Below are positions 935 through 43,644 of a stretch of DNA of 63,533 nt, piece after piece. Origin of the DNA: a virus (lineage: Duplodnaviria; Caudoviricetes); IMG/VR virus record IMGVR_UViG_3300010157_000065, positions 1 to 63,533 of that record; one strand, given 5' to 3'. Position 1 is the stretch's first letter. Each line of letters begins with the position of its first letter. The position numbers were made by a program, and so were the translations under genes. Below the pieces are notes generated by a model. That model saw only the letters and a list, made by a program, of their open reading frames with translations, made no database searches and had not been told where the DNA came from.

Positions 935-3900
935 TTAAGGACAATTCCCAACTTTAACTACATTTATTGTAGGCTCTATTATTGTTCTAGCGCAGAAGAA
1001 ATCTTCCACATAACCTGAAGTTCCATCTACACTTATTGATTGTACATTATTTGAAGTATCTACATATAGACAAGAATTAACACCTTCGCTACTATATATT
1101 TTATATTGCTTGTAGTATGCTTGATTACAACTTCCTAAATCTGTAATTGTTGCAGAAGGAGTTGAACTAGGTATTATAGAAGTTCCACAAAAGTTAGATG
1201 TAGATAATGCTAGAGTTAAAGACCTAAAAGATTTAATCCCATCACAATCTATATAGTCTATGGTTTCTACTTGATCTGGGTCTCCATAATCTACCCAATT
1301 TGCTCTAAAACTTCTACAGTCTACAAAGTCTCTCATATTTATATCGACTCTTATTAATTCAGAGCAACTTCCACTAGCTACAATATATTCAAAATAGTCA
1401 GGTAGATAATCATTGCCAGTGCTTAGGTAAGTAATAAGGTCTCCTATAACTTCAACTTCTCCAAGAGGAGGATATGTATCAATAGTTATAGTATATGGTG
1501 AGTTTACAAAAATATTATCTAACGCATTGAAGGTAAAACTTTCTTTTTGATTTATGTAATATAATTTGTTTTTAATGGTTGCATACACATCATCTATGTA
1601 ATCCCATACAATATATAATTTTGCGTTTAAATCTCCATCTCTATCAAATAGAAACTCAATGTAGTTGTCATCTCCATCTGTTGTTATAGCAGGATAAGAA
1701 GCTCTATCTCTTATTTGTTGAGCATCTAAAATATCTCTAGTTACTATATAACCTATTTTGTTACAAGAAGTAAATACTCCACTTATTTTACTAGAATAAA
1801 CTCTAATTGTAGAACCTTGAAATGGGATACCACCATCGGATTCATTTCCTACAATGGTTTCAAATCTAGTAAGACCAGAAGACTCAAATGTATCATCATT
1901 AGAATATTCCCCACTAAATCCATAAACAGAATCAGTCCAAGTGTATCTATTTCTCATAGACTTGTTGGCATCAGATAAATCATTTACAACTAATGAAACT
2001 ATTTCTAATTGAGGTGTCTCAGGAATAGTATTATATAATGAAATATTAACTACATCAGATAATGAATTGTTTGTGATATTCACTGTAATTATTTCTGCTG
2101 TAGTATTTTTAGTAAAGCTAAAGTTTCCTATTCCAGCCCTAGCTATACCATTATAAGTATCTCCATCAAACAATACTTCTATATCTAAATCATTATCGCA
2201 ATCGTAATCTATTATAAAATCTCCTACTTTTTTACCTGCATTTATTTCATAAGTATATGTATTATTTTTTAATATAGGTAAATTACTTAGTCTTTGATTA
2301 GGTTTAACTCTTGGAATAGCTAAAGTACGAGACTCTCCTGTAATTGAAAAAATATAGTTGTCATAAGAAGGGTCGTAACCTCCAGAGAAAAACTTTCCTT
2401 TATTTATTCTTAAATTATCTCTAAACCAATCTCTCATTCCGTATCTTGAGATAGGCTCTAAGCCATCAGGACCTAATCTTAAAATAGCCCCCCTTCTTTG
2501 GTCTGCAAAATAAATGTTATTAGCAAAATTAGAGAAACTCTCAGGGTCTAATCCTATTCCATATTCTCCAGAGAAAGGAATCTCTTGACCTAAAACATTT
2601 TCAACAGATGTTATTTGACCTCCTCCAACAGCATCAGAAAGTAAGTTTTTATTATAAAGAACTTTATGCACCTTATCTTCTTGAAAAACTATTAAATCCG
2701 TATCCCTTGAAAATATCTTTTGAATGCTTCCGTATTTATCATCTAAGTCTTTATAGTTTGCTCTTGATAGATTAAACTCATTTAAAGAGTTATAAACTGT
2801 GGTTTTATCATAACCTCCACTATAAGTCAAAGAAGATATATTCCTTCTTTCTTTATACTCATCTAATAAAACCGCATTAGGTCTTGTATTTGTAGATAGG
2901 AAGTTTGAAGAGAATAAATCCCTAACTCTATAACTCTCCGCACCATTTCCTTGAGTATAACAATTAAAAAAAGATAGATTTAATTTGGCAGGAGTGCTAG
3001 ACGTTTGGTCTTGGTCTCCATTATCAATTCCATTTGATAAATGATTACCATTAAGGTCTATTAGGTAAGTATCAGGTGTCTCATAGTAAACTTGAGATAC
3101 TTTATCTTTAGGTTCTGTTTCAAATATAAGAAGTTTTGCTGCATTTGTTATTGTTATATTAAACCACATCCTAGAAAAAGTCTGTCCATTACCAGCGTGT
3201 ATTCCATACCCTTCCATATACAATGCCCCATTAGGGTTTGGGGTATAAACAGTATATGGCTGACCAGCAAAATACTGAACTTGAGCAGTAAGTCTTAAAA
3301 AACCATAACCAAAAGGACCTAATCCATTTGCTTCACTTTGAAACCAACTTTGAAAATTAAGGTAATCATCTCCTACCGTATAACTTTTAGAATGAGTAGT
3401 CCGCTCAGCATTATCTCCAACAGCATTAAGAACATATATATCTATCTTACTTCCAGCCGTTATAGGAAAATCTTCATACAATCCAGTTGTTGCATTTAAT
3501 TTACTAAATGATGGAGTTAATCTAACTCCTGGTATTCCGCTAGTTTCACCATCGCTTATTTGTTGAAAATAAAGAGTGTTACTGGCTGAACTTTCGTTAA
3601 TTATTCCTCCAACATCTTTAAGTTTTATATAATTTCCAGCTATTTCAGTAGGTGTTCCCTCGATAAAATTTGAGAGTTGTTGTTTATATTCTAACACTTC
3701 TATCTTCTCTAAAACATCTAAAGGACCGTTTAAGTTTCTTTTAAGAATTAAGAAATCACCTTGCGCTACTTTATTTTTGTCTTGCCCTTCTAGTTTTATC
3801 CATACATTATTTTCTTCCTTATATTGCACAAGTCCATATATGGTTTGATAATCTAGTTTATTATCTTTTACAAAAATTTTATATTTAGTAGCCCAAATAG

Positions 3901-15738: not shown

Positions 15739-16314
15739 TTAATTTAATTTAATTACTATATCATTGTCTGTCATTCTATATAGCTTCTCATCATCTATCT
15801 CGAAAGCATACTCACTATTCTTTTTAAAACCGACTATATCTCCAGGTTTAAAACCTAACGCTATTAAAGCAGGACATCCATATATCAATTCTCCAGAATG
15901 TTTCTCTTCTTTTTCTGTGTCGTAAAGCATTTCTCCTTGTTTGTTTTCTATTGGTCTCACGAAACAATAATTTAAGTTTGAAGACCATTCACTGCCCTCC
16001 TCATCTTTTCTTTTTAAATATATTCTTTCAGGACTAACCACATAATCACCATCTCTAAAATACTCTGGACTTTGCGTTTGTCTTCCCTTCATGTCGTAGT
16101 AAGTTCTAAATACATTGTGGTGTAACACTACTATATCTCCAACCTCAATATTTCCTTGATAATTTATAGGAAGTTCTTTTACTTTACCAAACCTATTAAC
16201 GTGTTTTGATGATTCTAAAGAAGTGTTTACTGTAAACTGTAAACCATCAACTATTTTAAAATTGTTGTATTTTTCCCCATAAGGAGAAATTATAAAATTG
16301 TATGGACTCCTCAT
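15739..16314 (-). CDS. GroES-like (tandem Cpn10-fold) protein
   Basis: Two GroES-like units: FIISP...IEVGDIVVL and FVRPI...FKPGDIVGF...EIDDEKLYRMTDNDI. Confidence 0.6.
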   Translation of the reverse strand: MRSPYNFIISPYGEKYNNFKIVDGLQFTVNTSLESSKHVNRFGKVKELPINYQGNIEVGDIVVLHHNVFRTYYDMKGRQTQSPEYFRDGDYVVSPERIYLKRKDEEGSEWSSNLNYCFVRPIENKQGEMLYDTEKEEKHSGELIYGCPALIALGFKPGDIVGFKKNSEYAFEIDDEKLYRMTDNDIVIKLN

Positions 16315-25771: not shown

Positions 25772-26032
25772 TTAAAGTACTATTCTAATGTCATTCTCGC
25801 TAATGACTAGGTATTTTCCGCCTTCTATTCTTAATTCACTAGCATTAGTTTTATCGTAGTAAATTTTATCTCCAGGTTGAATACCTTTAACCAAATCACC
25901 TGTTAGAAATACATCGGCAAGTTTATACCGTATCTCTCTATCGTTTGCTTCAGTTATTACTAAACCAACTTTGTTTTTAACCTCCTCTTTAATTGGGGAG
26001 ATAACTATTGTTCTTCCAAATGCTTTTGCCAT
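25772..26032 (-). CDS. groES: Co-chaperonin GroES
   Basis: Mobile loop VGLVI, GIQPGDKIYY, EGGKYLVISENDI. Confidence 0.85.
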   Translation of the reverse strand: MAKAFGRTIVISPIKEEVKNKVGLVITEANDREIRYKLADVFLTGDLVKGIQPGDKIYYDKTNASELRIEGGKYLVISENDIRIVL

Positions 26033-27630
26033 TACCCTTGTCTTTTATTAGTTATTGTAGCCTCTGTAGTCAATAAAATAGAGGAAACAGATACTGCATT
26101 CTCAACAGCATTACGAACAACCTTAGTCGCATCAATAACACCCATTTTAAACATATCCCCACATTCTTCTGTAATTACGTTATATCCATATCCTTTGGTA
26201 TCCTCTTTAAATATATCTGCTAATATTTCATCTACACCAACACCAGCATTTTTTAATATTTGGTCAAATGGAGAATGTAAAGCAGACATTATTGAAAAGT
26301 ATCCTTTATTGAAATCGCTTTGAGAATTTAATTCAAATGGGTCTTTAAACATTTTTAAGCCATTAAAAACATCAATCAATGCTATTCCTCCTCCAGGCAA
26401 AATTCCTTCTTCTAACGCAGCCTTTGTAGCTTTAATCGCATCATCAACTCTATCTTTCTTCTCCTTCATTTCAACCTCGCTATTAGCCCCTACTTTTACT
26501 ACAGCAATCCCACCACATAATCTGCCAAGTCTGTCTTCGTAGTGCCATAGGTCTAGTTTGTTTTCAGAGAGTGAGATAGATTCTCTTACGTTAGAAACAC
26601 GAGCCTCAATATCATCTATGTACTTCTCTCTATCTGTAATAAGAATAGTTTGGTGTACATCAGAAATACATTTAAAAGCCTCTCCTAAGTAAGATGCGTC
26701 AATAGTAGATAAATCATTCCCTGTTTCATCAGATGCAAGTGTAGCTCCTGTTAATGCACATAGGTCCTCTAGTAATTCAAACCTTTTGATACCAAATCCT
26801 TCAGGTGAAACCACATTAACTTTAATTACTCCTTTAGCTTTGTTTACGTTCAAAGTATTCATAACACCATCTTCAACATCAGAGATAATCAAGAGGCTTC
26901 TTTTGTTTTGCATAGCAGCCTCACATATTGGAAGAATATCCTCAAGACTTTTAATTTCTTGGTCTGAGATAAATACTAATGGGTTTTCTAACACACACTC
27001 TTGTTTCTGTTGGTTTGTTATTAAATAAGGAGAGTTATACCCCTTCTTAATTTTAGTTCCATCAATAACTTCAACGTATGTTTTAGAAGACATACTTTCC
27101 TCCATAGTTACAACACCATCAACACCAACTTTTAAGTAAGCACTTGCAATAATATCACCCAGCTCACTATCATTATTAGCTGAGATTCTAGCTACGCTTT
27201 TAAGGGTCTTGTTGTTTACCTTCTTACTTTGTTTTTTCAACGCTTCAACAATGTCGTTTGAAGCCATCTGCATACCCTTTTTAAACTGAGAGATATTTGT
27301 CTTTTCATCAATTAATGTAATTGCTTTGTTTACAATGCTTTGTGTTAATACTGCTGTGGTTGTAGTTCCATCGCCTGCGTTATCAGCACTTCTTATAGAT
27401 GCTTGCTTGATAATACTTGCTCCTAGATTTTCTGTGGGATCAGATAGATTAATAGACTTTGCTACTGTAACACCATCTTTTGAAAGGTGAGGAAGACCTC
27501 TCTCATCTTCTATTGCAACATTTCTTCCTGCTGCACCTAATGTAACTTTTACTGCGTTTGCAACAATGTTTACACCGTTAATTAATTTTTCTTTGGCATC
27601 ATCTCCAAAGAGGATTTCTTTTTCAATCAT
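26032..27630 (-). CDS. groEL: Chaperonin GroEL
   Basis: KDGVTVAK, GDGTTT, ISANND, EKKDRVDDA, GILPGGG; no GGM tail. Confidence 0.97.
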   Translation of the reverse strand: MIEKEILFGDDAKEKLINGVNIVANAVKVTLGAAGRNVAIEDERGLPHLSKDGVTVAKSINLSDPTENLGASIIKQASIRSADNAGDGTTTTAVLTQSIVNKAITLIDEKTNISQFKKGMQMASNDIVEALKKQSKKVNNKTLKSVARISANNDSELGDIIASAYLKVGVDGVVTMEESMSSKTYVEVIDGTKIKKGYNSPYLITNQQKQECVLENPLVFISDQEIKSLEDILPICEAAMQNKRSLLIISDVEDGVMNTLNVNKAKGVIKVNVVSPEGFGIKRFELLEDLCALTGATLASDETGNDLSTIDASYLGEAFKCISDVHQTILITDREKYIDDIEARVSNVRESISLSENKLDLWHYEDRLGRLCGGIAVVKVGANSEVEMKEKKDRVDDAIKATKAALEEGILPGGGIALIDVFNGLKMFKDPFELNSQSDFNKGYFSIMSALHSPFDQILKNAGVGVDEILADIFKEDTKGYGYNVITEECGDMFKMGVIDATKVVRNAVENAVSVSSILLTTEATITNKRQG

Positions 27631-29729: not shown

Positions 29730-30470
29730 CAACATATTTTCCACATTATATACATAAGTTACTAATAAATAAAAAGTATACAAGAGTGGTATCACTCATC
29801 ATATAAGTTAGCCTTATAGAATGGTTGAGACCTATGTTGTATGTTTTTTTAGAATACCACATATCAGTAAGTTTTAGGTTATACCCCATTCTCCACCCTC
29901 TCACCTCTCCCCATAACCGAATATATTTCACCCCCCCCATAATTATAATTACATTTTGATTTTAAACTTTTTGCCTTTTTTCCTCCTATATATGTAACCG
30001 TAAATAAATAACCCTGTTTTAATTTTATAGGTTTTTTTTAGTAGGTCCATTTTGCGATACCTTGAAAAAAGTTTTTTTAGATGGTCCAAAAGGTTGTGTT
30101 AAACCAGCTCTAAATTCTAAAAACAGTTAATTTGTTTAAATAATCAATTTACATTATTATGTTTTCATAGTTTATATATTATGCTGCAATAGTTTAAATA
30201 GTGTTTATATTACATTATATATATGTTTTCGTTGTCCTTATATATATACGTGTTTTAATAGTTTTATATGTTAATTATTTTAAATTGGATTAAAAAATTA
30301 TATCCTTGATACTCAACAACTTACAAAATACTTTTATTTAATTATGTTAAAGTTTTGTTAAAAATTTGGAAATAACATTTTAACCGCCGTATATTTGTAC
30401 CGTTGCAATGAAGCAACAAAAAACATATTATAACTAAATTAGTTTTCGGAGCTTTTTAAAACCGACTAAA
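29730..30470. other. AT-rich non-coding divergence region between the two transcription arms (candidate genome end / control region)
   Basis: No credible ORF; homopolymer runs (C8, T7), repeated GTTTTTTTAG..GGTCCA. Confidence 0.55.
30365..30397 (+). promoter_or_regulatory. Early promoter (-33 TTTG, -7 TATATTTG)
   Basis: Both Bacteroidota elements with ~21-nt spacing. Confidence 0.7.
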
Positions 30471-30473
30471 AAA

Positions 30474-30896
30474 ATGAATACAACAGTAAAAAACACCAGT
30501 ACAAAAAAAGTAGCTACAAAATTGAGCGTTACTGAATTATTAAAAGCAACTACCGAAAAAATCGCAACCCCTAAAAAAACAAATTTAGAGAGACAAAACG
30601 ACCTTATAAATAAAGAGGACAAAACTACTTTTGACTGGGTAAAACTGGCAAATGTAACCGATAAAATAGAGGACAAAACTATTTCAAAGGTTTACAAAAA
30701 TTGTATAAAAAACGTTTATTTAAAAAATATAACGGGACTAACTAAAACACCTACTTTTGAGGACTTCAAAGCTAAAATGTCAGTAAAAGAAACTTATTCA
30801 AACTGGGACGGATACAAAGCACTGGCTAAATTTAACGTAAAAAATAACACAGCTGCAAAGGTGAAAAGACAAAACAAAAAAGAGGCTAAAAAATAG
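30474..30896 (+). CDS. First early gene, very basic 140-aa protein
   Basis: Lys/Thr-rich; follows the early promoter; precedes the structured RNA locus. Confidence 0.75.
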   Translation: MNTTVKNTSTKKVATKLSVTELLKATTEKIATPKKTNLERQNDLINKEDKTTFDWVKLANVTDKIEDKTISKVYKNCIKNVYLKNITGLTKTPTFEDFKAKMSVKETYSNWDGYKALAKFNVKNNTAAKVKRQNKKEAKK

Positions 30897-30906
30897 CCTT
30901 TAAATA

Positions 30907-30956
30907 GGTGTAAAAGACTTGGCTTTTTTATCGGGTTCAATTTGCCCGATACACCA
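30907..30956 (+). ncRNA. tRNA-like element 1 (acceptor, D-like and T arms; no anticodon arm)
   Basis: GGTGT/ACACC-A acceptor; AAAAG-ACTTGG-CTTTT arm; ATCGGG-TTCAATTTG-CCCGAT T-arm. Confidence 0.6.
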
Positions 30957-30959
30957 CTA

Positions 30960-31300
30960 ATAAATGTAAGGAATACACCAAAAACAAACGTTTTGAGGTC
31001 GTTAACTGGCGAAATGCGAGGACTTCAAAAAAGGCGAAACGCTATGTTTGTTATAACGTGCAAAAATTCTGGAAATATTTAGTAACCTTTAATATGAGGG
31101 ACTGGCAAAGGTCTTGCCTACTAAATTTGACACGGAATACAAGAAACAACTACACTGAACCGTCAAGGGTGTAAGGCTATAAAAGTAGTCAGGTTTGAAC
31201 TGCGAGGAAATTTATAGGGCTTTTTAAATACATTTAGAATGTATTATTTTAGTCAATACCATATTTGAAATATAGGGCAAAAAATAAAGATAATTATATA
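30960..31300 (+). ncRNA. Putative large structured non-coding RNA
   Basis: ORF-free with nested helices (see findings). Confidence 0.6.
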
Positions 31301-31304
31301 TTTT

Positions 31305-31337
31305 AGGCACACCTTATAAAATAGGTGTGCCTTTATT
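31305..31337 (+). terminator. Perfect 10-bp hairpin, terminator or processing stem
   Basis: AGGCACACCT-TATAAAAT-AGGTGTGCCT then TTATT. Confidence 0.65.
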
Positions 31338-31340
31338 ATA

Positions 31341-31406
31341 TGGTATGTTGCAAGGTGCAAAGGGCAAAATTATTTTGTCTTATGGGTTCGATTCCCATCA
31401 TACCAA
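31341..31406 (+). ncRNA. tRNA-like element 2 (non-canonical cloverleaf)
   Basis: 7-bp acceptor TGGTATG/CATACCA; canonical T-arm ATGGG-TTCGATT-CCCAT; mini D-arm TTGCA-AGG-TGCAA; 9-bp stem with 3-nt loop in place of an anticodon arm. Confidence 0.75.
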
Positions 31407-31454
31407 CAACTGCAATAGTGCAGCCAAACAATAAAATAATATAAAAAAAAGAAA

Positions 31455-31652
31455 ATGAAAAATTTAAGTCAATCAACTTGGGAGATGTGGTTTATTACAT
31501 CAGTAACGGTATTTTTAGCAATGTTTTTTATCGGGGCGTTGCCAGGCAGTGTGGTCTTCTTCCCTTTATTCTGGTGGATGTTCGGGCCTGTAATCCTTAA
31601 TTTAGTAGCGTGTATTTATGTTGGTCTTAATTCACAATCACATGAGGAATAA
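31455..31652 (+). CDS. Small two-TM membrane protein
   Basis: Two hydrophobic helices. Confidence 0.65.
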   Translation: MKNLSQSTWEMWFITSVTVFLAMFFIGALPGSVVFFPLFWWMFGPVILNLVACIYVGLNSQSHEE

Positions 31653-32060: not shown

Positions 32061-32161
32061 TATATTTGCAGTGAGCAATCCACTACTTGCTGCATACTTA
32101 TTTATAAAAACATATACAAACCCTTATTGAGTGTAGTGGCTCAGTAGGGGTTTTGTATTTT
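32061..32161 (+). promoter_or_regulatory. Promoter plus kissing-loop leader/attenuator A
   Basis: TATATTTG; hairpin loop TCCACTAC is complementary to loop TGTAGTGG of an 18-bp terminator-like hairpin. Confidence 0.7.
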
Positions 32162-32166
32162 AAATT

Positions 32167-32787
32167 ATGATAGGAATATACAAAATAATCAGCCCTAGTA
32201 ATAAAGTGTACATAGGTCAGTCCGTAAACATTAGAAAAAGATTTAATGCTTATAGATATGCTAAATGCAAAGGACAAATAAAACTATATAGATCATTCAT
32301 TAAATATGGCGTAGAAAAACATATTTTTGAAATTATAGAAGAATGTAATATTGAAGAACTAAATAAAAAAGAAAGATATTATCAAGATTTATATAATGCT
32401 ATTTGTCCCAAAAACGGATTAAATTGTTTATTGACCGCAACTGAAACTAAAAGTAAAGTTTTTAGTAAGGAAACTAGAGAAAAAATGTCAATATCAAGAA
32501 CAGGTAAAACTCAAAGTAAGGAAACTAGAGAAAAAGTATCTAAAGCAAATAAAGGTAAATTGTTTAGTAAAGAAACTAGAGAAAAATTATCTATAGCTGC
32601 AAAAGGAAGGATTAGGACAGAAGAACATTTAAAGAATAGATGTAAAATAATATTAGATACAAATAACGGAGTGTTTTACTTCGGATTAAAAGACGCATCT
32701 AAATATTCAGGAATAAATGAGCATACACTGAGAGCTAAATTAAATAATAGATTTGGACCAAACAATACCAGTTTAAGGTATGTATAA
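32167..32787 (+). CDS. GIY-YIG homing endonuclease with NUMOD3 repeats
   Basis: GIYKI...YIGQS, R, E, N catalytic pattern; three SKETREK(M/V/L)S repeats. Confidence 0.92.
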   Translation: MIGIYKIISPSNKVYIGQSVNIRKRFNAYRYAKCKGQIKLYRSFIKYGVEKHIFEIIEECNIEELNKKERYYQDLYNAICPKNGLNCLLTATETKSKVFSKETREKMSISRTGKTQSKETREKVSKANKGKLFSKETREKLSIAAKGRIRTEEHLKNRCKIILDTNNGVFYFGLKDASKYSGINEHTLRAKLNNRFGPNNTSLRYV

Positions 32788-40968: not shown

Positions 40969-41000
40969 AAAACCACTCTTGAAACATAGGGTGGTTTTTT
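40969..41000 (+). terminator. Intrinsic terminator after ssb
   Basis: AAAACCACTCT/AGGGTGGTTTT plus U-run. Confidence 0.8.
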
Positions 41001-41874: not shown

Positions 41875-42765
41875 ATGAGTGGATGGATAAAAATACATAG
41901 AGAAATAAAAAATCATTGGATTTGGAATAATACAGAATACTTTAAATGGTGGATGGATATTTTATTGGAAGCTAATTATCTTCCTAGTAAGGTAGTTATA
42001 AAAGGAACTATTTATGAGTGCGGAAGAGGTGAAAAACTATACTCTTTAGATACTTGGGCAAGTAGATGGAATACCAATAAAAGTAAGGTTAGAAGGTTTT
42101 TAAATCTGTTACAAAATGACTCAATGATAGAGATTAAAAACGAAACGCAAACGACACGTATAACTATCTGTAATTACGATGATTACCAAGATAAAGAAAA
42201 CGCAAGTGAAACGCAAATGAAACGCAAACGAAACGCAAGTGAAACGCATTTGACACCAATTAAAGAAAGAAAAGAAATAAAGAAAGATAATCTTTTAGTA
42301 GAAGTTGATAGAAATGGTCTTGATGATGCCACAAAAACATACTACGATATTGCAATTGGCTTTCAAAGAGTATTTATTCTTAATAAAAAATCTTTAGGAC
42401 TTACTAATTTTGAAGATCAAAATAATGCTACATTTAAAAGTTATGTCGAGCCTATTAGATTAGCATTTGAAAAAGATAAAAGAACCAGAGATGACTTTGC
42501 TAAGATATTTATATTTCTTCAGTCAGATGAGTTTTGGATGAAGAACATTATGTCTACATCTAAACTAAGAGAAAAAATGGGTGATTTATTAATTAAAGCA
42601 TCAAAACTTAAAGCTAAACAAGCTAAACTACCTGATGACTGGTATTCAAGAGAACTAACTACAGAACAACAATCACTACTATCACCTGAGCAATTAAAAA
42701 GATGGAAAGAAAATAAGGTTAGGTTAGGTGTTGAGGGTGGATATTTAAAACCAATAGAAAGATAA
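41875..42765 (+). CDS. Replication initiator (lambda O / DnaD-like)
   Basis: MSGWIKIHR.I..HWIW, wHTH, TRITICNYDDYQ, C-terminal FWMKNIMS..KLR; internal iterons. Confidence 0.85.
   Translation: MSGWIKIHREIKNHWIWNNTEYFKWWMDILLEANYLPSKVVIKGTIYECGRGEKLYSLDTWASRWNTNKSKVRRFLNLLQNDSMIEIKNETQTTRITICNYDDYQDKENASETQMKRKRNASETHLTPIKERKEIKKDNLLVEVDRNGLDDATKTYYDIAIGFQRVFILNKKSLGLTNFEDQNNATFKSYVEPIRLAFEKDKRTRDDFAKIFIFLQSDEFWMKNIMSTSKLREKMGDLLIKASKLKAKQAKLPDDWYSRELTTEQQSLLSPEQLKRWKENKVRLGVEGGYLKPIER
42142..42251 (+). repeat. Iterons, probable replication origin
   Basis: Five tandem 11-bp (G/A)AAACGCAnnn units at 42197-42251 plus one at 42142; followed by an A-rich tract. Confidence 0.85.
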
Positions 42766-42768
42766 GAT

Positions 42769-43644
42769 ATGAAAAAAGTAATAGCGTGGTGGTCTGGTGG
42801 TATTACATCAGCAGTAACTTGTAAGATATGTATAGATACATACGGAGTTGAAAATGTAAGGGTTATTTTTATTGATACATTCAATGAAGATGAAGATACC
42901 TACAGATTTAAAAAAGATTGTGAGGTTTTATATGGTAAAGAAATAGAGACCATAACATTGATAGGTAAAAAATATAAATCTATTCAAGATGTATGGATAA
43001 AACACAAGTCATTAAACGTAGCTAAAGGTGCTGTATGTTCTTCTGAACTTAAAAGAAGTGTTAGAGAGAAATGGCAAAAGAATAATGAGTATGACCTACA
43101 AGCATTTGGTTTTGAAATAGAAGAGATTAATAGAGCAAAGTCTATGAAGTTAAACCATTCAAAAGCTAAACCTATATTCCCTTTATTGTTATATGGCTAT
43201 TCAAAAAAAGATTGTATTAAAATAATGGAGGACTATGGAGTTCAAGTTCCAAGAATGTATTACTTAGGTTTCCATAATAATAATTGTTTTAACACTGGAT
43301 GCGTTCAGGGAGGTATTGGTTATTGGCAAAAGATAAGAGATGAATATCCTGACAAGTTTAATGCTATGGCAGAGATGGAACATAAACTAACAGAACTTAA
43401 AGGTGAGCCTGTTACTATGCTTAAAGACCAAAGCAATGAAGCAAAACAATCTAAAAATCAGTTAATATTTTTAAAACCACATCCTGATTATCCTGCTATA
43501 AAAGATATATCTATGATTAAAGGTAGAGAAGTTAAACCTTTATTTGAGTGTAATGGTTTCTGTGGTGTAAATGATTTATCAGAGAGAACTGAAACTGAGA
43601 AAGAGATTAATTATGGACAATTAGATATGTTTGGAGATGAGTAA
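42769..43644 (+). CDS. PAPS-reductase-like PP-loop enzyme with Cys cluster
   Basis: WWSGGITSA PP-loop; CSSELK, NNCxxxGCVQGG, CNGFC. Confidence 0.8.
   Translation: MKKVIAWWSGGITSAVTCKICIDTYGVENVRVIFIDTFNEDEDTYRFKKDCEVLYGKEIETITLIGKKYKSIQDVWIKHKSLNVAKGAVCSSELKRSVREKWQKNNEYDLQAFGFEIEEINRAKSMKLNHSKAKPIFPLLLYGYSKKDCIKIMEDYGVQVPRMYYLGFHNNNCFNTGCVQGGIGYWQKIRDEYPDKFNAMAEMEHKLTELKGEPVTMLKDQSNEAKQSKNQLIFLKPHPDYPAIKDISMIKGREVKPLFECNGFCGVNDLSERTETEKEINYGQLDMFGDE

What the first reader, a model, noticed from the sequence alone, without database searches (positions are those of the whole stretch)
30390..31425. Candidate new system: basic first-early protein plus a large structured RNA bracketed by two anticodon-less tRNA mimics
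Seen: the first rightward promoter (30390) leads into a 140-aa Lys-rich ORF. Ten nt past its stop comes tRNA-like element 1 (30907-30956), then ~340 nt of ORF-free, densely paired sequence, a 10-bp hairpin (31305-31332) and tRNA-like element 2 (31341-31406). Established: RNase P and RNase Z recognise the acceptor/T-arm stack and elbow rather than the anticodon, and tRNA-like tags such as mascRNA serve as processing signals. Inference: the mimics punctuate the transcript so host enzymes release a discrete ncRNA right after DNA entry, possibly forming an RNP with the basic protein (anti-defence decoy or host takeover). I cannot match the RNA to a family I know.
Basis: partly seen in the sequence, partly recalled or inferred. 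Interest (0 to 1): 0.85.

Follow-up and report, generated by a model that had tools for sequence, protein, structure and literature searches.

The report
Phage early RNA flanked by tRNA mimics
A family of freshwater Flavobacteria-type phages carries, just after its first early gene, a conserved folded RNA flanked by two miniature tRNA look-alikes without anticodons, which probably lets host tRNA-trimming enzymes cut the RNA out; its job is unknown.

Summary
The window is a complete 63.5-kb Flavobacteriia-type podophage. After the first rightward gene (140 aa, 30474-30896) lie a minimal tRNA-like element (TLS1, 30907-30955), a three-way junction with two G(A/C)AA(U/C)-loop hairpins (30983-31052), about 250 nt of further structure, an intrinsic-terminator-like hairpin (31305-31340) and a second tRNA-like element (TLS2, 31341-31406; Rfam tRNA 28.3 bits against a cut-off of 29; ARAGORN calls nothing). 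Twenty non-redundant related loci keep this layout. Covariation is strong: 11 of 15 TLS pairs and 18 of 22 junction pairs carry compensatory changes, and 0 of 500 shuffles reach those values. Rfam has no matching family. No internal promoter motif was found, so the RNA is probably co-transcribed with the gene, and cutting by RNase P and RNase Z at the tRNA mimics is the most economical way to release it. This is inferred, not shown. A distant phage lineage has the same RNA layout behind an unrelated first gene, which argues against an obligatory complex with the 140-aa protein. The main rival is a cis-acting, put/nut-like antitermination site upstream of the terminator. I read it as a new structured RNA family and a new variant of tRNA-like punctuation.

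The parts
30365..30397 (+). Bacteroidetes-type promoter match (TTTG, 21 nt, TATATTTG) in the divergent intergenic region
   Evidence: Pattern search. It is the only + strand match between 30365 and 38741. The same strict motif lies upstream of the homologous ORF in 9 of 22 loci, and inside the RNA region in 1 of 22.
30474..30896 (+). First rightward ORF: 140 aa, Lys-rich, all-helical, unknown fold
   Evidence: It has 108 homologues at E<=1e-3 and 84 cluster representatives. No Pfam or PHROG match. AlphaFold2 pLDDT is 79. No fold match: Foldseek E>1, VIA Z<=4.3.
30907..30956 (+). TLS1, a minimal tRNA-like element. Acceptor GGUGUA/UACACC; D-like hairpin AAAAG-ACUUGG-CUUUU; T arm 30931-30949; A30956 in the discriminator position. 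No anticodon arm.
   Evidence: Script geometry. R1 model gives 14.2 bits. One compensatory pair in the T arm against L010.
30983..31052 (+). Three-way junction. P1 is AACAAAC/GUUUGUU. P2 is a long hairpin with a 5' internal loop GUUAA and loop GAAAU (core GCGAAAUGC, 31009-31017). P3 is a hairpin with loop GAAAC (core GCGAAACGC, 31034-31042).
   Evidence: R2 model gives 67.4 bits at 30985-31050.
31053..31304 (+). Variable body of the RNA. It contains hairpin GGCAA-AGGUCU-UGCC (about 31108-31122), a stem CUACAC/GUGUAAG with one compensatory pair against L010, and an A/U hairpin at 31227-31245.
   Evidence: 82% mean column identity to L010 over the aligned 30880-31480 stretch, while the protein is only 63% identical. 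Two-sequence alifold. The 5' part is shared with group B relatives.
31305..31340 (+). Intrinsic-terminator-like hairpin (10 bp, 6 G-C) plus U-rich tail UUAUUAUA
   Evidence: L010 has a hairpin of different sequence plus a U-run at the same place. A terminator-like hairpin lies between the junction and TLS2 in 9 of 13 loci.
31341..31406 (+). TLS2, a four-way tRNA-like element. Acceptor UGGUAUG/CAUACCA; D-like hairpin UUGCA-AGG-UGCAA; long stem with a 3-nt loop in place of the anticodon arm; T arm AUGGG-UUCGAUU-CCCAU; discriminator A31406; no CCA.
   Evidence: Rfam tRNA 28.3 bits against cut-off 29. ARAGORN negative. RNAfold cloverleaf. Two compensatory T-arm pairs against L010. R1 gives 10.5 bits.
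31410..31423 (+). Small hairpin CUGCA-AUAG-UGCAG just after TLS2
   Evidence: Kept through one compensatory pair in L010 (CUACA/UGUAG). Similar hairpins follow TLS2 in L006, L007 and L013.
31455..31652 (+). Next early ORF (65 aa, hydrophobic), the first of a long run of small rightward ORFs

Best explanation
This is a conserved structured RNA module inside the early operon of a family of freshwater Flavobacteriia-type podophages.

The host RNA polymerase starts at the promoter near 30365-30397 and transcribes the 140-aa gene and the RNA as one molecule. Two minimal tRNA-like elements mark the borders of the RNA. Each has an acceptor stem stacked on a T arm, about 11-14 bp in all, plus a small D-like hairpin whose GG-containing loop can complete the tRNA elbow. 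Neither has an anticodon loop.

The most likely mechanism is as follows. Host RNase P cuts at the 5' side of each mimic and RNase Z, or an equivalent enzyme, cuts at the 3' side. This would separate the gene-1 mRNA, an RNA of about 385-430 nt and the mRNA of the downstream early genes. The RNA's 3' end would come either from the terminator hairpin at 31305-31340 or, in read-through transcripts, from RNase P cutting at TLS2 nine bases further on.

The released RNA would act through its invariant core, a three-way junction with two hairpins carrying G(A/C)AA(U/C) loops. Its partner is more likely a host factor than the 140-aa protein.

Shown here: the structures, their conservation and covariation, their order, and the absence of an internal promoter motif. 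Inferred: co-transcription, cleavage by RNase P/Z, release of the RNA, and action in trans.
For: 1. Structure is under selection at the RNA level.
- TLS model alignment of 12 sequences (11 distinct): 97.5% of cells paired, 11 of 15 pairs with changes on both sides, 0 of 500 shuffles as high on four of the five measures (36 of 500 for further pair types), and slid controls at 20-48% paired.
- Junction alignment of 12 sequences: 97.2% paired, 18 of 22 pairs with compensatory changes, 0 of 500 shuffles on all five measures.
- U-G pairs and the UUCGAUU T loop fix the + strand.

2. The layout is conserved.
- The two hairpins with the GYGMAAYG-type core (two looser variants also accepted) lie 90-150 nt after the stop codon in 21 of 21 non-redundant loci.
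- A closing stem P1 was found in 20 of 21 by constrained folding.
- TLS1 sits right after the stop in 16 of 21 by script or model.
- TLS2 is present in 13 of 16 loci with enough downstream DNA.

3. The mimics have the tRNA features that RNase P and RNase Z read.
- G at +1, a discriminator-like A, and a T loop of UUCGAUU or a variant.
- Acceptor plus T stem sums to 11-14 bp across the TLS1 examples; a tRNA has 12.
- A model built only from TLS2 also picks up TLS1 of L003 (24.2 bits), L015 (21.3 bits) and the window (14.2 bits).

4. The elements are specific to this locus. Each of 5 whole related phage records gives one strong TLS match, at this locus; only 2 further weak matches (E 0.19 and 0.4) lie elsewhere.

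5. No own promoter was found. The strict Bacteroidetes motif lies inside the RNA region in 1 of 22 loci and upstream of the ORF in 9 of 22.

6. The noncoding DNA is better conserved than the gene. Against L010 it shows 82% mean column identity, while the protein is 63% identical.

7. There is precedent.
- Bacterial RNase P matures phage regulatory RNAs such as P1/P7 C4, and RNase P plus RNase Z process the tRNA-like ends of MALAT1 and MEN-beta (passages of PMC4919922).
- MHV68 TMERs are a tRNA-like element followed by two hairpins, released by tRNase Z (passage of PMC4838037).
Against: - There is no expression or end-mapping data. No RNA run holding the stretch was listed.
- Four of 21 loci (L002, L007, L013, L029) lack TLS1 and carry a different element there. 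A 5' tRNA mimic is therefore not indispensable.
- Three of 16 loci with enough sequence (L003, L023, L026) show no recognisable TLS2.
- A terminator-like hairpin directly before TLS2 in 9 of 13 loci means TLS2 is made only on read-through. That fits a cis-regulatory reading at least as well.
- The window's own TLS scores against the relatives' model are low (14.2 and 10.5 bits).
- Nothing identifies a partner for the hairpin loops.
- The promoter test uses one strict motif, which half of the loci lack even upstream of the ORF.
Confidence: 0.45

Rival explanations
1. Cis-acting processive antitermination or attenuation site, like HK022 put or lambda nut. The two-hairpin junction in the nascent early transcript modifies the transcribing host RNA polymerase, directly or through a host factor. 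The polymerase then reads through the terminator at 31305-31340 into the early genes. The tRNA mimics only tidy the transcript or insulate the neighbouring mRNAs.
For: - The order promoter, gene 1, two-hairpin element, terminator, rest of the early genes matches the logic of PR-cro-nutR/putR-tR1 (recalled from memory).
- No further Bacteroidetes-type promoter match lies on the + strand until 38741, although about 25 small ORFs follow the terminator.
- A terminator-like hairpin lies between the junction and TLS2 in 9 of 13 loci.
- The hairpin loops are invariant while the stems covary, as expected for a recognition site.
- The RNA is kept in a lineage with an unrelated first protein, which fits a protein-independent, put-like device.
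Against: - The loops end in a pyrimidine (GAAAU, GCAAU, GAAAC) and can close as a G-U or G-C pair. They are therefore not the GNRA-like boxB pentaloop.
- No boxA-like element was looked for or seen.
- Four of 13 loci (group B) have no terminator by my criterion.
- This reading does not explain about 250-450 nt of extra conserved structure or the two tRNA mimics.
- Only 2 other terminator-like sites lie on the + strand of the early region: 32118, beside a homing endonuclease, and 40969. Little processive antitermination would be needed.
Confidence: 0.25
2. One reading: the released RNA forms a ribonucleoprotein with the basic 140-aa protein encoded just upstream, serving as a decoy or for host takeover.
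For: - Gene and RNA are adjacent in 21 of 21 family loci.
- The protein is Lys-rich with a disordered basic N-terminus.
- One of 62 distant family members carries an N-terminal Rho_N (HeH-type nucleic-acid-binding) domain, E 9.9e-11.
- Two identical hairpin loops would suit a dimer.
Against: - The same RNA layout occurs in L082/L085/L086 after a 171-aa ORF with no detectable similarity: TLS1 with a UUCAAUU loop, four GAAAU hairpins, a junction scoring 43.7 bits, and a four-way TLS2. BLASTP gives E 14 and hhalign probability 0.2% against profiles of 25 and 62 sequences.
- The protein has no known RNA-binding fold.
- Adjacency is expected anyway for the first two items of one operon.
Confidence: 0.12
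3. The small tRNA mimics are themselves the products. Once trimmed, and perhaps given CCA, the 50-66-nt elbow-bearing RNAs would titrate a host enzyme or a defence protein that recognises the acceptor/T-arm part of tRNA. The RNA between them is mainly a spacer or regulator.
For: - Both mimics keep a complete elbow (GG loop plus T loop) and an acceptor stack, with strong covariation.
- TLS2 is the best conserved part across groups: 67-77 bits in 9 loci.
- The anticodon arm is dispensable and variable. It is absent in 9 minimal forms, and an unrelated hairpin occupies its place in the window, L002 and L007.
Against: - The junction is found in more loci than the mimics (21 of 21 against 16 of 21 and 13 of 16).
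- No CCA is encoded.
- No target is known.
- TLS2 lies behind a terminator, so it would be made in small amounts.
Confidence: 0.1
4. Decayed tRNA genes, or remains of a tRNA-based attachment site, with no present function.
For: - Phages often carry tRNA genes.
- TLS2 nearly reaches the Rfam tRNA threshold.
Against: - Compensatory changes keep the stems in lineages whose terminases are only 33-64% identical.
- The minimal three-way form is uniform across groups.
- No integrase was found among 37 ORFs scanned.
- Both acceptor strands are present, not just a 3' tRNA half.
- An exact 22-nt T-arm/acceptor search found nothing in viral contigs.
Confidence: 0.03

Closest known systems
mascRNA / MEN-beta tRNA-like elements of MALAT1 and NEAT1 (mammals)
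   Same: A tRNA-like fold without decoding function sits inside a long transcript and serves as a cutting signal for RNase P and RNase Z. A small tRNA-like RNA is a by-product (passage of PMC4919922).
   Different: The known case is eukaryotic and nuclear, with a single element at the 3' end. Here the host is bacterial, two elements flank the RNA, the minimal form has three helices rather than a cloverleaf, and cleavage is not shown.
TMERs of murine gammaherpesvirus 68
   Same: A viral transcript made of a tRNA-like element followed by two hairpins, separated by tRNase Z (passage of PMC4838037). TLS1 followed by the two-hairpin junction looks alike on paper.
   Different: TMERs are about 200-250 nt Pol III units whose hairpins are Dicer substrates. 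Here the hairpins have invariant loops, sit in a three-way junction inside a bacterial early operon, and no miRNA pathway exists.
RNase P-matured phage regulatory RNAs (P1/P7 C4 antisense RNA; P4 CI RNA, recalled)
   Same: A phage RNA cut out of a longer early or immunity transcript by host RNase P (C4: reference 206 cited in PMC4919922; P4 CI is recalled from memory).
   Different: Those are short antisense RNAs (about 77-80 nt) of temperate enterobacterial phages with known targets. No antisense target, no sequence similarity and no Rfam match here.
HK022 put RNA and lambda N/nut (boxB) antitermination sites (recalled from memory)
   Same: Two adjacent stem-loops with conserved loops, downstream of the first early gene and upstream of a terminator.
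   Different: The hairpins here close a three-way junction. The loops are G(A/C)AA(U/C), not GNRA-like GAAAA or GACAA. The upstream protein is Lys-rich, not an Arg-rich N-type peptide. The host is Bacteroidota. Function was not tested.
Bacterial Y RNA YrlA with its tRNA-like domain (recalled from memory)
   Same: A bacterial or phage noncoding RNA containing a tRNA-like module that lacks an anticodon.
   Different: No Rfam match down to E 10 in the region. No Ro/Rsr-type protein was seen among 37 ORFs scanned. The tRNA-like modules here are terminal units, not an insert in a Ro-binding stem.

Membership tests
tRNA (Rfam RF00005 / ARAGORN) | Score at or above the curated threshold, or detection by a tRNA gene finder | tested here: not met
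   TLS2 scores 28.3 bits against a gathering score of 29. It does not appear in the gathering-threshold scan of the whole window. ARAGORN finds 0 genes in the window and in L002-L009.
tRNA (Rfam RF00005 / ARAGORN) | Seven-nucleotide anticodon loop with U33 and a purine at position 37 | tested here: not met
   In the window the arm is a long stem with a 3-nt loop. If a 7-nt loop is forced, position 33 is A and position 37 is U (read from the sequence). Nine relatives have no such arm at all.
tRNA-like processing signal (mascRNA type) | Acceptor stem stacked on a T arm of tRNA-like length, with a T loop and an elbow partner | tested here: met
   Acceptor plus T stems sum to 11-14 bp. T loops are UUCGAUU, UUCAAUY or AGCGAAA. 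The D-like loop contains GG.
tRNA-like processing signal (mascRNA type) | Cleavage by RNase P at the 5' side and RNase Z at the 3' side | not testable with these tools
   No RNA run was listed. This needs in-vitro cleavage or end mapping.
tmRNA | tRNA-like domain formed by the 5' and 3' ends, plus a tag reading frame | tested here: not met
   ARAGORN finds no tmRNA. Rfam gives no match. Each mimic is self-contained.
lambda nut / boxB | 5-bp stem with a GNRA-like pentaloop (G...A) bound by an Arg-rich N peptide | tested here: not met
   The loop's last base is U or C in all 42 hairpins of 21 loci. The upstream protein is Lys-rich and has no family match.
HK022 put RNA | Two stem-loops acting in cis on RNA polymerase to suppress downstream terminators | not testable with these tools
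   The layout is compatible. No sequence comparison was possible, because I had no put sequence from a tool. Function needs transcription assays.
YrlA / Y RNA with Ro (Rsr) | Match to the RNA family and a Ro/TROVE protein partner | tested here: inconclusive
   No Rfam match at E<=10 in 30300-31600. No Ro-like annotation among 37 of 69 listed ORFs scanned against PHROGs. The remaining ORFs were not scanned.
phi29-type packaging RNA | Three-way junction with two mutually complementary loops for ring formation | tested here: not met
   A junction is present, but the two loops are alike (GAAAU and GAAAC) rather than complementary. Rfam gives no match.

The most novel reading that the evidence does not exclude
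The phage would hijack the host's tRNA-maturation enzymes to carve three RNAs out of its very first transcript: a roughly 0.4-kb structured RNA and two free anticodon-less tRNA-elbow mimics. These would act together as a purely RNA-based host-takeover or anti-defence module. For example, they could soak up a host protein that recognises the acceptor/T-arm half of tRNA, or a factor that binds the invariant G(A/C)AA(U/C) hairpins. The module would work independently of any phage protein, which would explain why it is kept in lineages whose early proteins are unrelated.
Probability: 0.15. Interest if true: 0.85.

Novelty: new variant of a known kind. Interest (0 to 1): 0.62.

Why it matters
Structured noncoding RNAs of phages outside the enterobacterial models are almost unexplored, and Bacteroidota lack the classical RNA chaperones Hfq and ProQ (recalled from memory).

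- **A ready-made RNA family.** It has unusually clear covariation, a defined place as the second item of the early operon, and many relatives: the neighbouring protein alone has 108 homologous clusters in public metagenomes, and the fetched loci come from lake and other freshwater records.
- **If the mimics are cut.** This would be a bacterial-virus counterpart of the tRNA punctuation seen in mitochondria, MALAT1 and a herpesvirus. It would also be a natural analogue of the engineered tRNA-flanked guide-RNA arrays.
- **If the junction is an antitermination site.** It would be the first such device described for Bacteroidota phages, to my knowledge; I did not search the literature for this specifically.
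- **For annotation.** The minimal 45-50-nt three-helix tRNA mimic is missed by tRNA finders and could be searched for more widely.

Tried and rejected
- **RNA evidence.** No RNA holder was listed: 3 DNA runs held 0.40, 0.22 and 0.06 of the words.
- **Stop-codon read-through.** In the window 61 codons stay open after the TAG. The open stretch is 0-45 codons in the 20 relatives, and both TAA and TAG are used as stops. Rejected.
- **Link to the replication initiator.** The initiator gene's internal repeats (GAAACGCAA, 42140-42250) resemble the hairpin core. The initiator was not found in 5 related records, so the idea could not be tested. The other 3 of 5 window matches to GYGMAAYGC are coding repeats.
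- **Wider pattern scans.**
  - GCGAAATGC-gap-GCGAAATGC in viral contigs gave 90 stretches (80 listed and examined), nearly all coding repeats or chance. Only L050 (the same contig as L002) and L082/L085/L086 were real.
  - GGCAAAGGNCTTGCC gave 119+ stretches; of 129 loci checked by tblastn, one (L223) had the ORF.
  - The 22-nt TLS2 end had no match.
- **Bacterial genomes.** There is no relative of the protein. A strict two-hairpin pattern gave 37 stretches. Across the 28 given to R2 there was one match, L262 at E 0.063, and none across the 4 Bacteroidota loci given to R1.
- **Cultured relatives.**
  - R2 found nothing in MW202828.1, elemoE, phi18:3, phi38:1 or Gundel_1.
  - R1 gave only two weak matches in Gundel_1, E 0.09 and 0.15.
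  - blastn and tblastn against the phage collection found no match for the region or the protein.
- **Protein function.**
  - No Pfam or PHROG family for the 140-aa protein.
  - No fold match.
  - The Atlas search gave nothing above 0.83.
- **Viral sgRNA idea.** The preprint's abstract, outline and term search mention neither tRNA nor Flavobacteria. No long repeat:anti-repeat duplex is present. Not pursued.
- **Self-cleaving ribozymes, group I introns, GOLLD/ROOL.** No Rfam match.
- **Operator-like palindrome GTTTACAAATGTAAAC.** It is seen in relatives' RNA regions, but matches in the window are at chance level.
- **Correction to my notebook.** Entry 3 says R2 found 21 of 21 family loci. That is wrong. 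R2 found 15 of 21 at E<=1, 9 of them at 67 bits or more.
Full report
**What the window is**

The window is a complete IMG/VR virus record of 63,533 bp with about 30% G+C.
- Genes run leftward up to about 30.0 kb and rightward from about 30.4 kb.
- PHROG scans of 37 ORFs give portal, large terminase, virion proteins, endolysin, GroEL/GroES, an exonuclease, a DnaD/O-like initiator and a primase-helicase. No integrase, reverse transcriptase or Ro-like protein was seen.
- The terminase is 62% identical to an uncultured podovirus (MW202828.1). It is 42% identical to Flavobacterium phages of genus Elemovirus and 32-39% identical to Cellulophaga and Tenacibaculum phages.
- The host is therefore most likely a freshwater member of the Flavobacteriia. 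This is an inference.

**Check of the observation**

- A Bacteroidetes-type promoter match lies at 30365-30397.
- The 140-aa ORF is 30474-30896.
- TLS1 is 30907-30955/6.
- The 10-bp hairpin at 31305-31332 is followed by a U-rich run and scores as terminator-like.
- TLS2 at 31341-31406 scores 28.3 bits against Rfam tRNA, just under the cut-off of 29. It has a good acceptor and T arm but a 3-nt loop where the anticodon loop should be.
- ARAGORN finds no tRNA or tmRNA.
- No Rfam family reaches its threshold anywhere in the window.
- The 534-nt stretch folds far better than shuffles, z = -4.5.

**Relatives**

The 140-aa protein has no Pfam or PHROG family.
- It has 108 homologues at E<=1e-3 among 151 candidates.
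- A profile search finds 84 cluster representatives in 1.84 billion proteins.
- A profile scan fetched 8 loci from viral contigs and 20 from metagenome contigs.
- I dropped 8 duplicates (L005, L016, L017, L019, L020, L024, L025, L028). That leaves the window plus 20 distinct loci.
- In all of them a stretch with few ORFs follows the gene.

**The conserved core: a three-way junction**

- All 21 loci carry two tandem hairpins 90-150 nt after the stop codon. The core is mostly GYGMAAYGC, with looser versions in some loci: CCGAAAUGG for the first hairpin of group B and L006, ACGCAAUGU for the second hairpin of group E.
- In the window this motif occurs in noncoding DNA only at 31009 and 31034. The three other matches are coding repeats.
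- Unconstrained folding gives the same three-way junction in most loci.
- Constrained folding finds a closing stem in 20 of 21 loci. L008 has one by eye.
- Closing-stem sequences differ widely. Examples are AACAAAC/GUUUGUU in the window, AAUAGGAC/GUUUUAUU in L010, AACCGCU/AGCGGUU in L003 and UUAAUCUUUC/GAAAGAUUAA in L009.
- Model R2, built from the nine long-form members, finds 15 of the 21 family loci at E<=1, nine of them at 67-91 bits.
- On the 12 matches with E<=0.002, 97.2% of cells pair and 18 of 22 pairs carry changes on both sides. No shuffle of 500 reaches the observed value on any of five measures. Slid controls pair at 37-48%.
- That alignment was fitted to the model, which favours the structure. 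The independent folds show the same helices.
- The loops are invariant while the stems vary. The last loop base is always U or C, so G-U or G-C can close a three-base loop.

**The tRNA mimics**

- TLS2 in nine relatives is a uniform 45-50-nt three-helix unit. It has a 6-7-bp acceptor, a 4-bp hairpin with loop UGGA, a linker UUUAU, a 5-bp T arm with loop UUCGAUU, UUCAAUC, AGCGAAA or AGCGAUA, and then the acceptor 3' strand and an A.
- The window, L002 and L007 carry an extra, unrelated hairpin where the anticodon arm would be. L010 has only an unpaired stretch there.
- Model R1, built from those nine, finds TLS2 in 11 loci at 35-77 bits.
- R1 also finds TLS1 of L003 (24.2 bits), L015 (21.3 bits), the window (14.2 bits), L021 and L004 (about 13 bits) and L014 (10.5 bits). 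The two mimics therefore belong to one structural class.
- On the 12 matches with E<=0.001, 97.5% of cells pair and 11 of 15 pairs have compensatory changes. Four of the five measures are reached by 0 of 500 shuffles; the fifth, further pair types, by 36 of 500.
- Between the window and L010 alone, the TLS2 T arm has two compensatory pairs and the hairpin after TLS2 has one.
- A geometric script finds TLS1 directly after the stop in 15 family loci and in L086. Acceptor plus T stem sums to 11-14 bp, against 12 in a tRNA.
- With L003 from the model, that makes 16 of 21 loci. L023 looks the same by eye.
- L002, L007, L013 and L029 instead have a different element that can be drawn as a pseudoknot.
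- TLS2 is seen in 13 of the 16 loci with at least 600 nt of downstream DNA. It is not seen in L003, L023 and L026.
- In five whole related phage records the strong TLS match is unique to this locus.

**Between junction and TLS2**

- The body measures 266-444 nt and is only partly conserved between groups.
- In the window and L010 the aligned region has 82% mean column identity, although the proteins are only 63% identical.
- A G+C-containing hairpin followed by a T-run lies between the junction and TLS2 in 9 of 13 loci. It ends 9-10 nt before TLS2 in five of them: the window, L010, L007, L008 and L029. Group B (4 loci) has none by my criterion.

**Transcription logic**

- The strict Bacteroidetes promoter motif lies upstream of the ORF in 9 of 22 loci. 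It lies inside the 900 nt after the stop in 1 of 22.
- In the window no further + strand match occurs before 38741.
- The only other terminator-like sites on the + strand of the early region are at 31536 (inside an ORF, weak), at 32118 (next to a GIY-YIG homing endonuclease) and at 40969.
- The simplest reading is that gene 1, the RNA and the downstream early genes come from one promoter. This is an inference.

**A second lineage**

- The pattern scan turned up L082, L085 and L086, from contigs of 62,956, 91,067 and 30,103 bp.
- Their terminase is only 33% identical to the window's.
- Their junction scores 43.7 bits with R2.
- The layout is the same (read from the sequence): a divergent region, a first rightward Lys-rich ORF of 171 aa, a TLS1 with an 8-bp acceptor and a UUCAAUU T loop starting about 40 nt after the stop, four GAAAU hairpins, and a four-way TLS2 just before the next ORF.
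- The ORF shows no similarity to the 140-aa family. BLASTP gives E 14, and hhalign gives probability 0.2% against profiles of 25 and 62 sequences.
- Only one small protein is shared between about 15 kb of that phage and the window.
- The RNA is therefore more widely kept than any neighbouring protein. This argues for a host partner, or for an RNA that acts on its own.

**What it most likely does**

- I favour the punctuation model (0.45). The mimics offer host RNase P and RNase Z the acceptor/T-arm stack and elbow that these enzymes read. Cutting would release gene-1 mRNA, the structured RNA and the downstream mRNA.
- Precedents exist for each step. Phage C4 RNA is an RNase P substrate, and the tRNA-like ends of MALAT1 and MEN-beta are cut by RNase P and RNase Z (PMC4919922, passages seen). 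Herpesvirus TMERs are a tRNA-like element plus two hairpins, processed by tRNase Z (PMC4838037, passage seen).
- The RNase P 'ruler' idea comes from PMC4919913, for which I saw only the search listing.
- The main rival (0.25) is a cis-acting antitermination or attenuation device. The junction sits between the early promoter and a terminator that has no promoter behind it, which is the logic of put and nut sites. My knowledge of those systems is recalled from memory, not taken from a call.
- The two readings are not exclusive.
- Free tRNA-mimic decoys (0.10) and decayed tRNA genes (0.03) rank lower.

**Novelty**

- There is no Rfam match.
- The phage collection gives no match by DNA or protein.
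- Three literature searches brought up nothing on tRNA-like elements in Flavobacterium or other Bacteroidota phages.
- tRNA-like punctuation is a known principle. The three-helix mimic, the pairing of two of them around a phage RNA, and the junction motif are new as far as I can tell.

**Limits**

- All functional statements are inferences.
- The family loci come from lake or freshwater metagenomes, and no cultured representative was found.
- Several loci are short contigs.
- The covariation counts use model-fitted alignments of related sequences.

Noticed in passing
window 42140-42250 (inside ORF 41875-42765, +): Six or so tandem 11-nt repeats of GAAACGCAA[A/G]N lie inside the DnaD/O-like replication initiator gene. 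They look like iterons of an origin placed within its own initiator gene, as in lambda. The repeat core resembles the hairpin core GCGAAACGC of the early RNA.
   Followed up: partly
window 32118-32787: A GIY-YIG/NUMOD3 homing endonuclease gene (32167-32787) sits among the small early ORFs. It is preceded by a 15-bp terminator-like hairpin (32118-32153) and is probably a mobile insertion.
   Followed up: no
window 26032-27630 and 15739-16314 (- strand): The phage encodes its own GroEL-like chaperonin (532 aa, PHROG E 4e-141) and a GroES-like co-chaperonin (191 aa).
   Followed up: no
L006 about 3580-3600 and 3770-3790; L008, L007, L013 (noncoding region after the homologous ORF): The perfect palindrome GTTTACAAATGTAAAC occurs one to three times inside the RNA region of some relatives. 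It looks like an operator for a DNA-binding regulator. It is absent from the window (matches there are at chance level).
   Followed up: partly
L086 3864-5030 (also L082, L085): A distant phage lineage (terminase 33% identical) has the same layout of early ORF, tRNA mimic, GAAAU hairpins and tRNA mimic, but with four GAAAU hairpins and an unrelated 171-aa Lys-rich first ORF.
   Followed up: partly
L002, L007, L013, L029: first about 100 nt after the homologous ORF: In place of TLS1 these loci carry a conserved element that can be drawn as an H-type pseudoknot (for example AGGUU..UACGGU..AACCU..ACCGUA), followed by further hairpins. Whether it is a pseudoknotted acceptor mimic was not examined.
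   Followed up: no
protein family of window 30474-30896 (alignment A14): One of 62 distant family members carries an N-terminal Rho_N (HeH-type) domain, E 9.9e-11. The N-terminal part of the family is highly variable in length and low in predicted order.
   Followed up: no
window 42769-43644 (+): A PAPS-reductase-like protein (PHROG 424, E 5e-50) is encoded next to the replication initiator and the primase-helicase.
   Followed up: no
L030/L035 (one 61-kb viral contig) and L077: Unrelated A+T-rich phage contigs carry arrays of GCGAAAT repeats (tandem or iteron-like) in noncoding DNA. No link to the hairpin motif was established.
   Followed up: no
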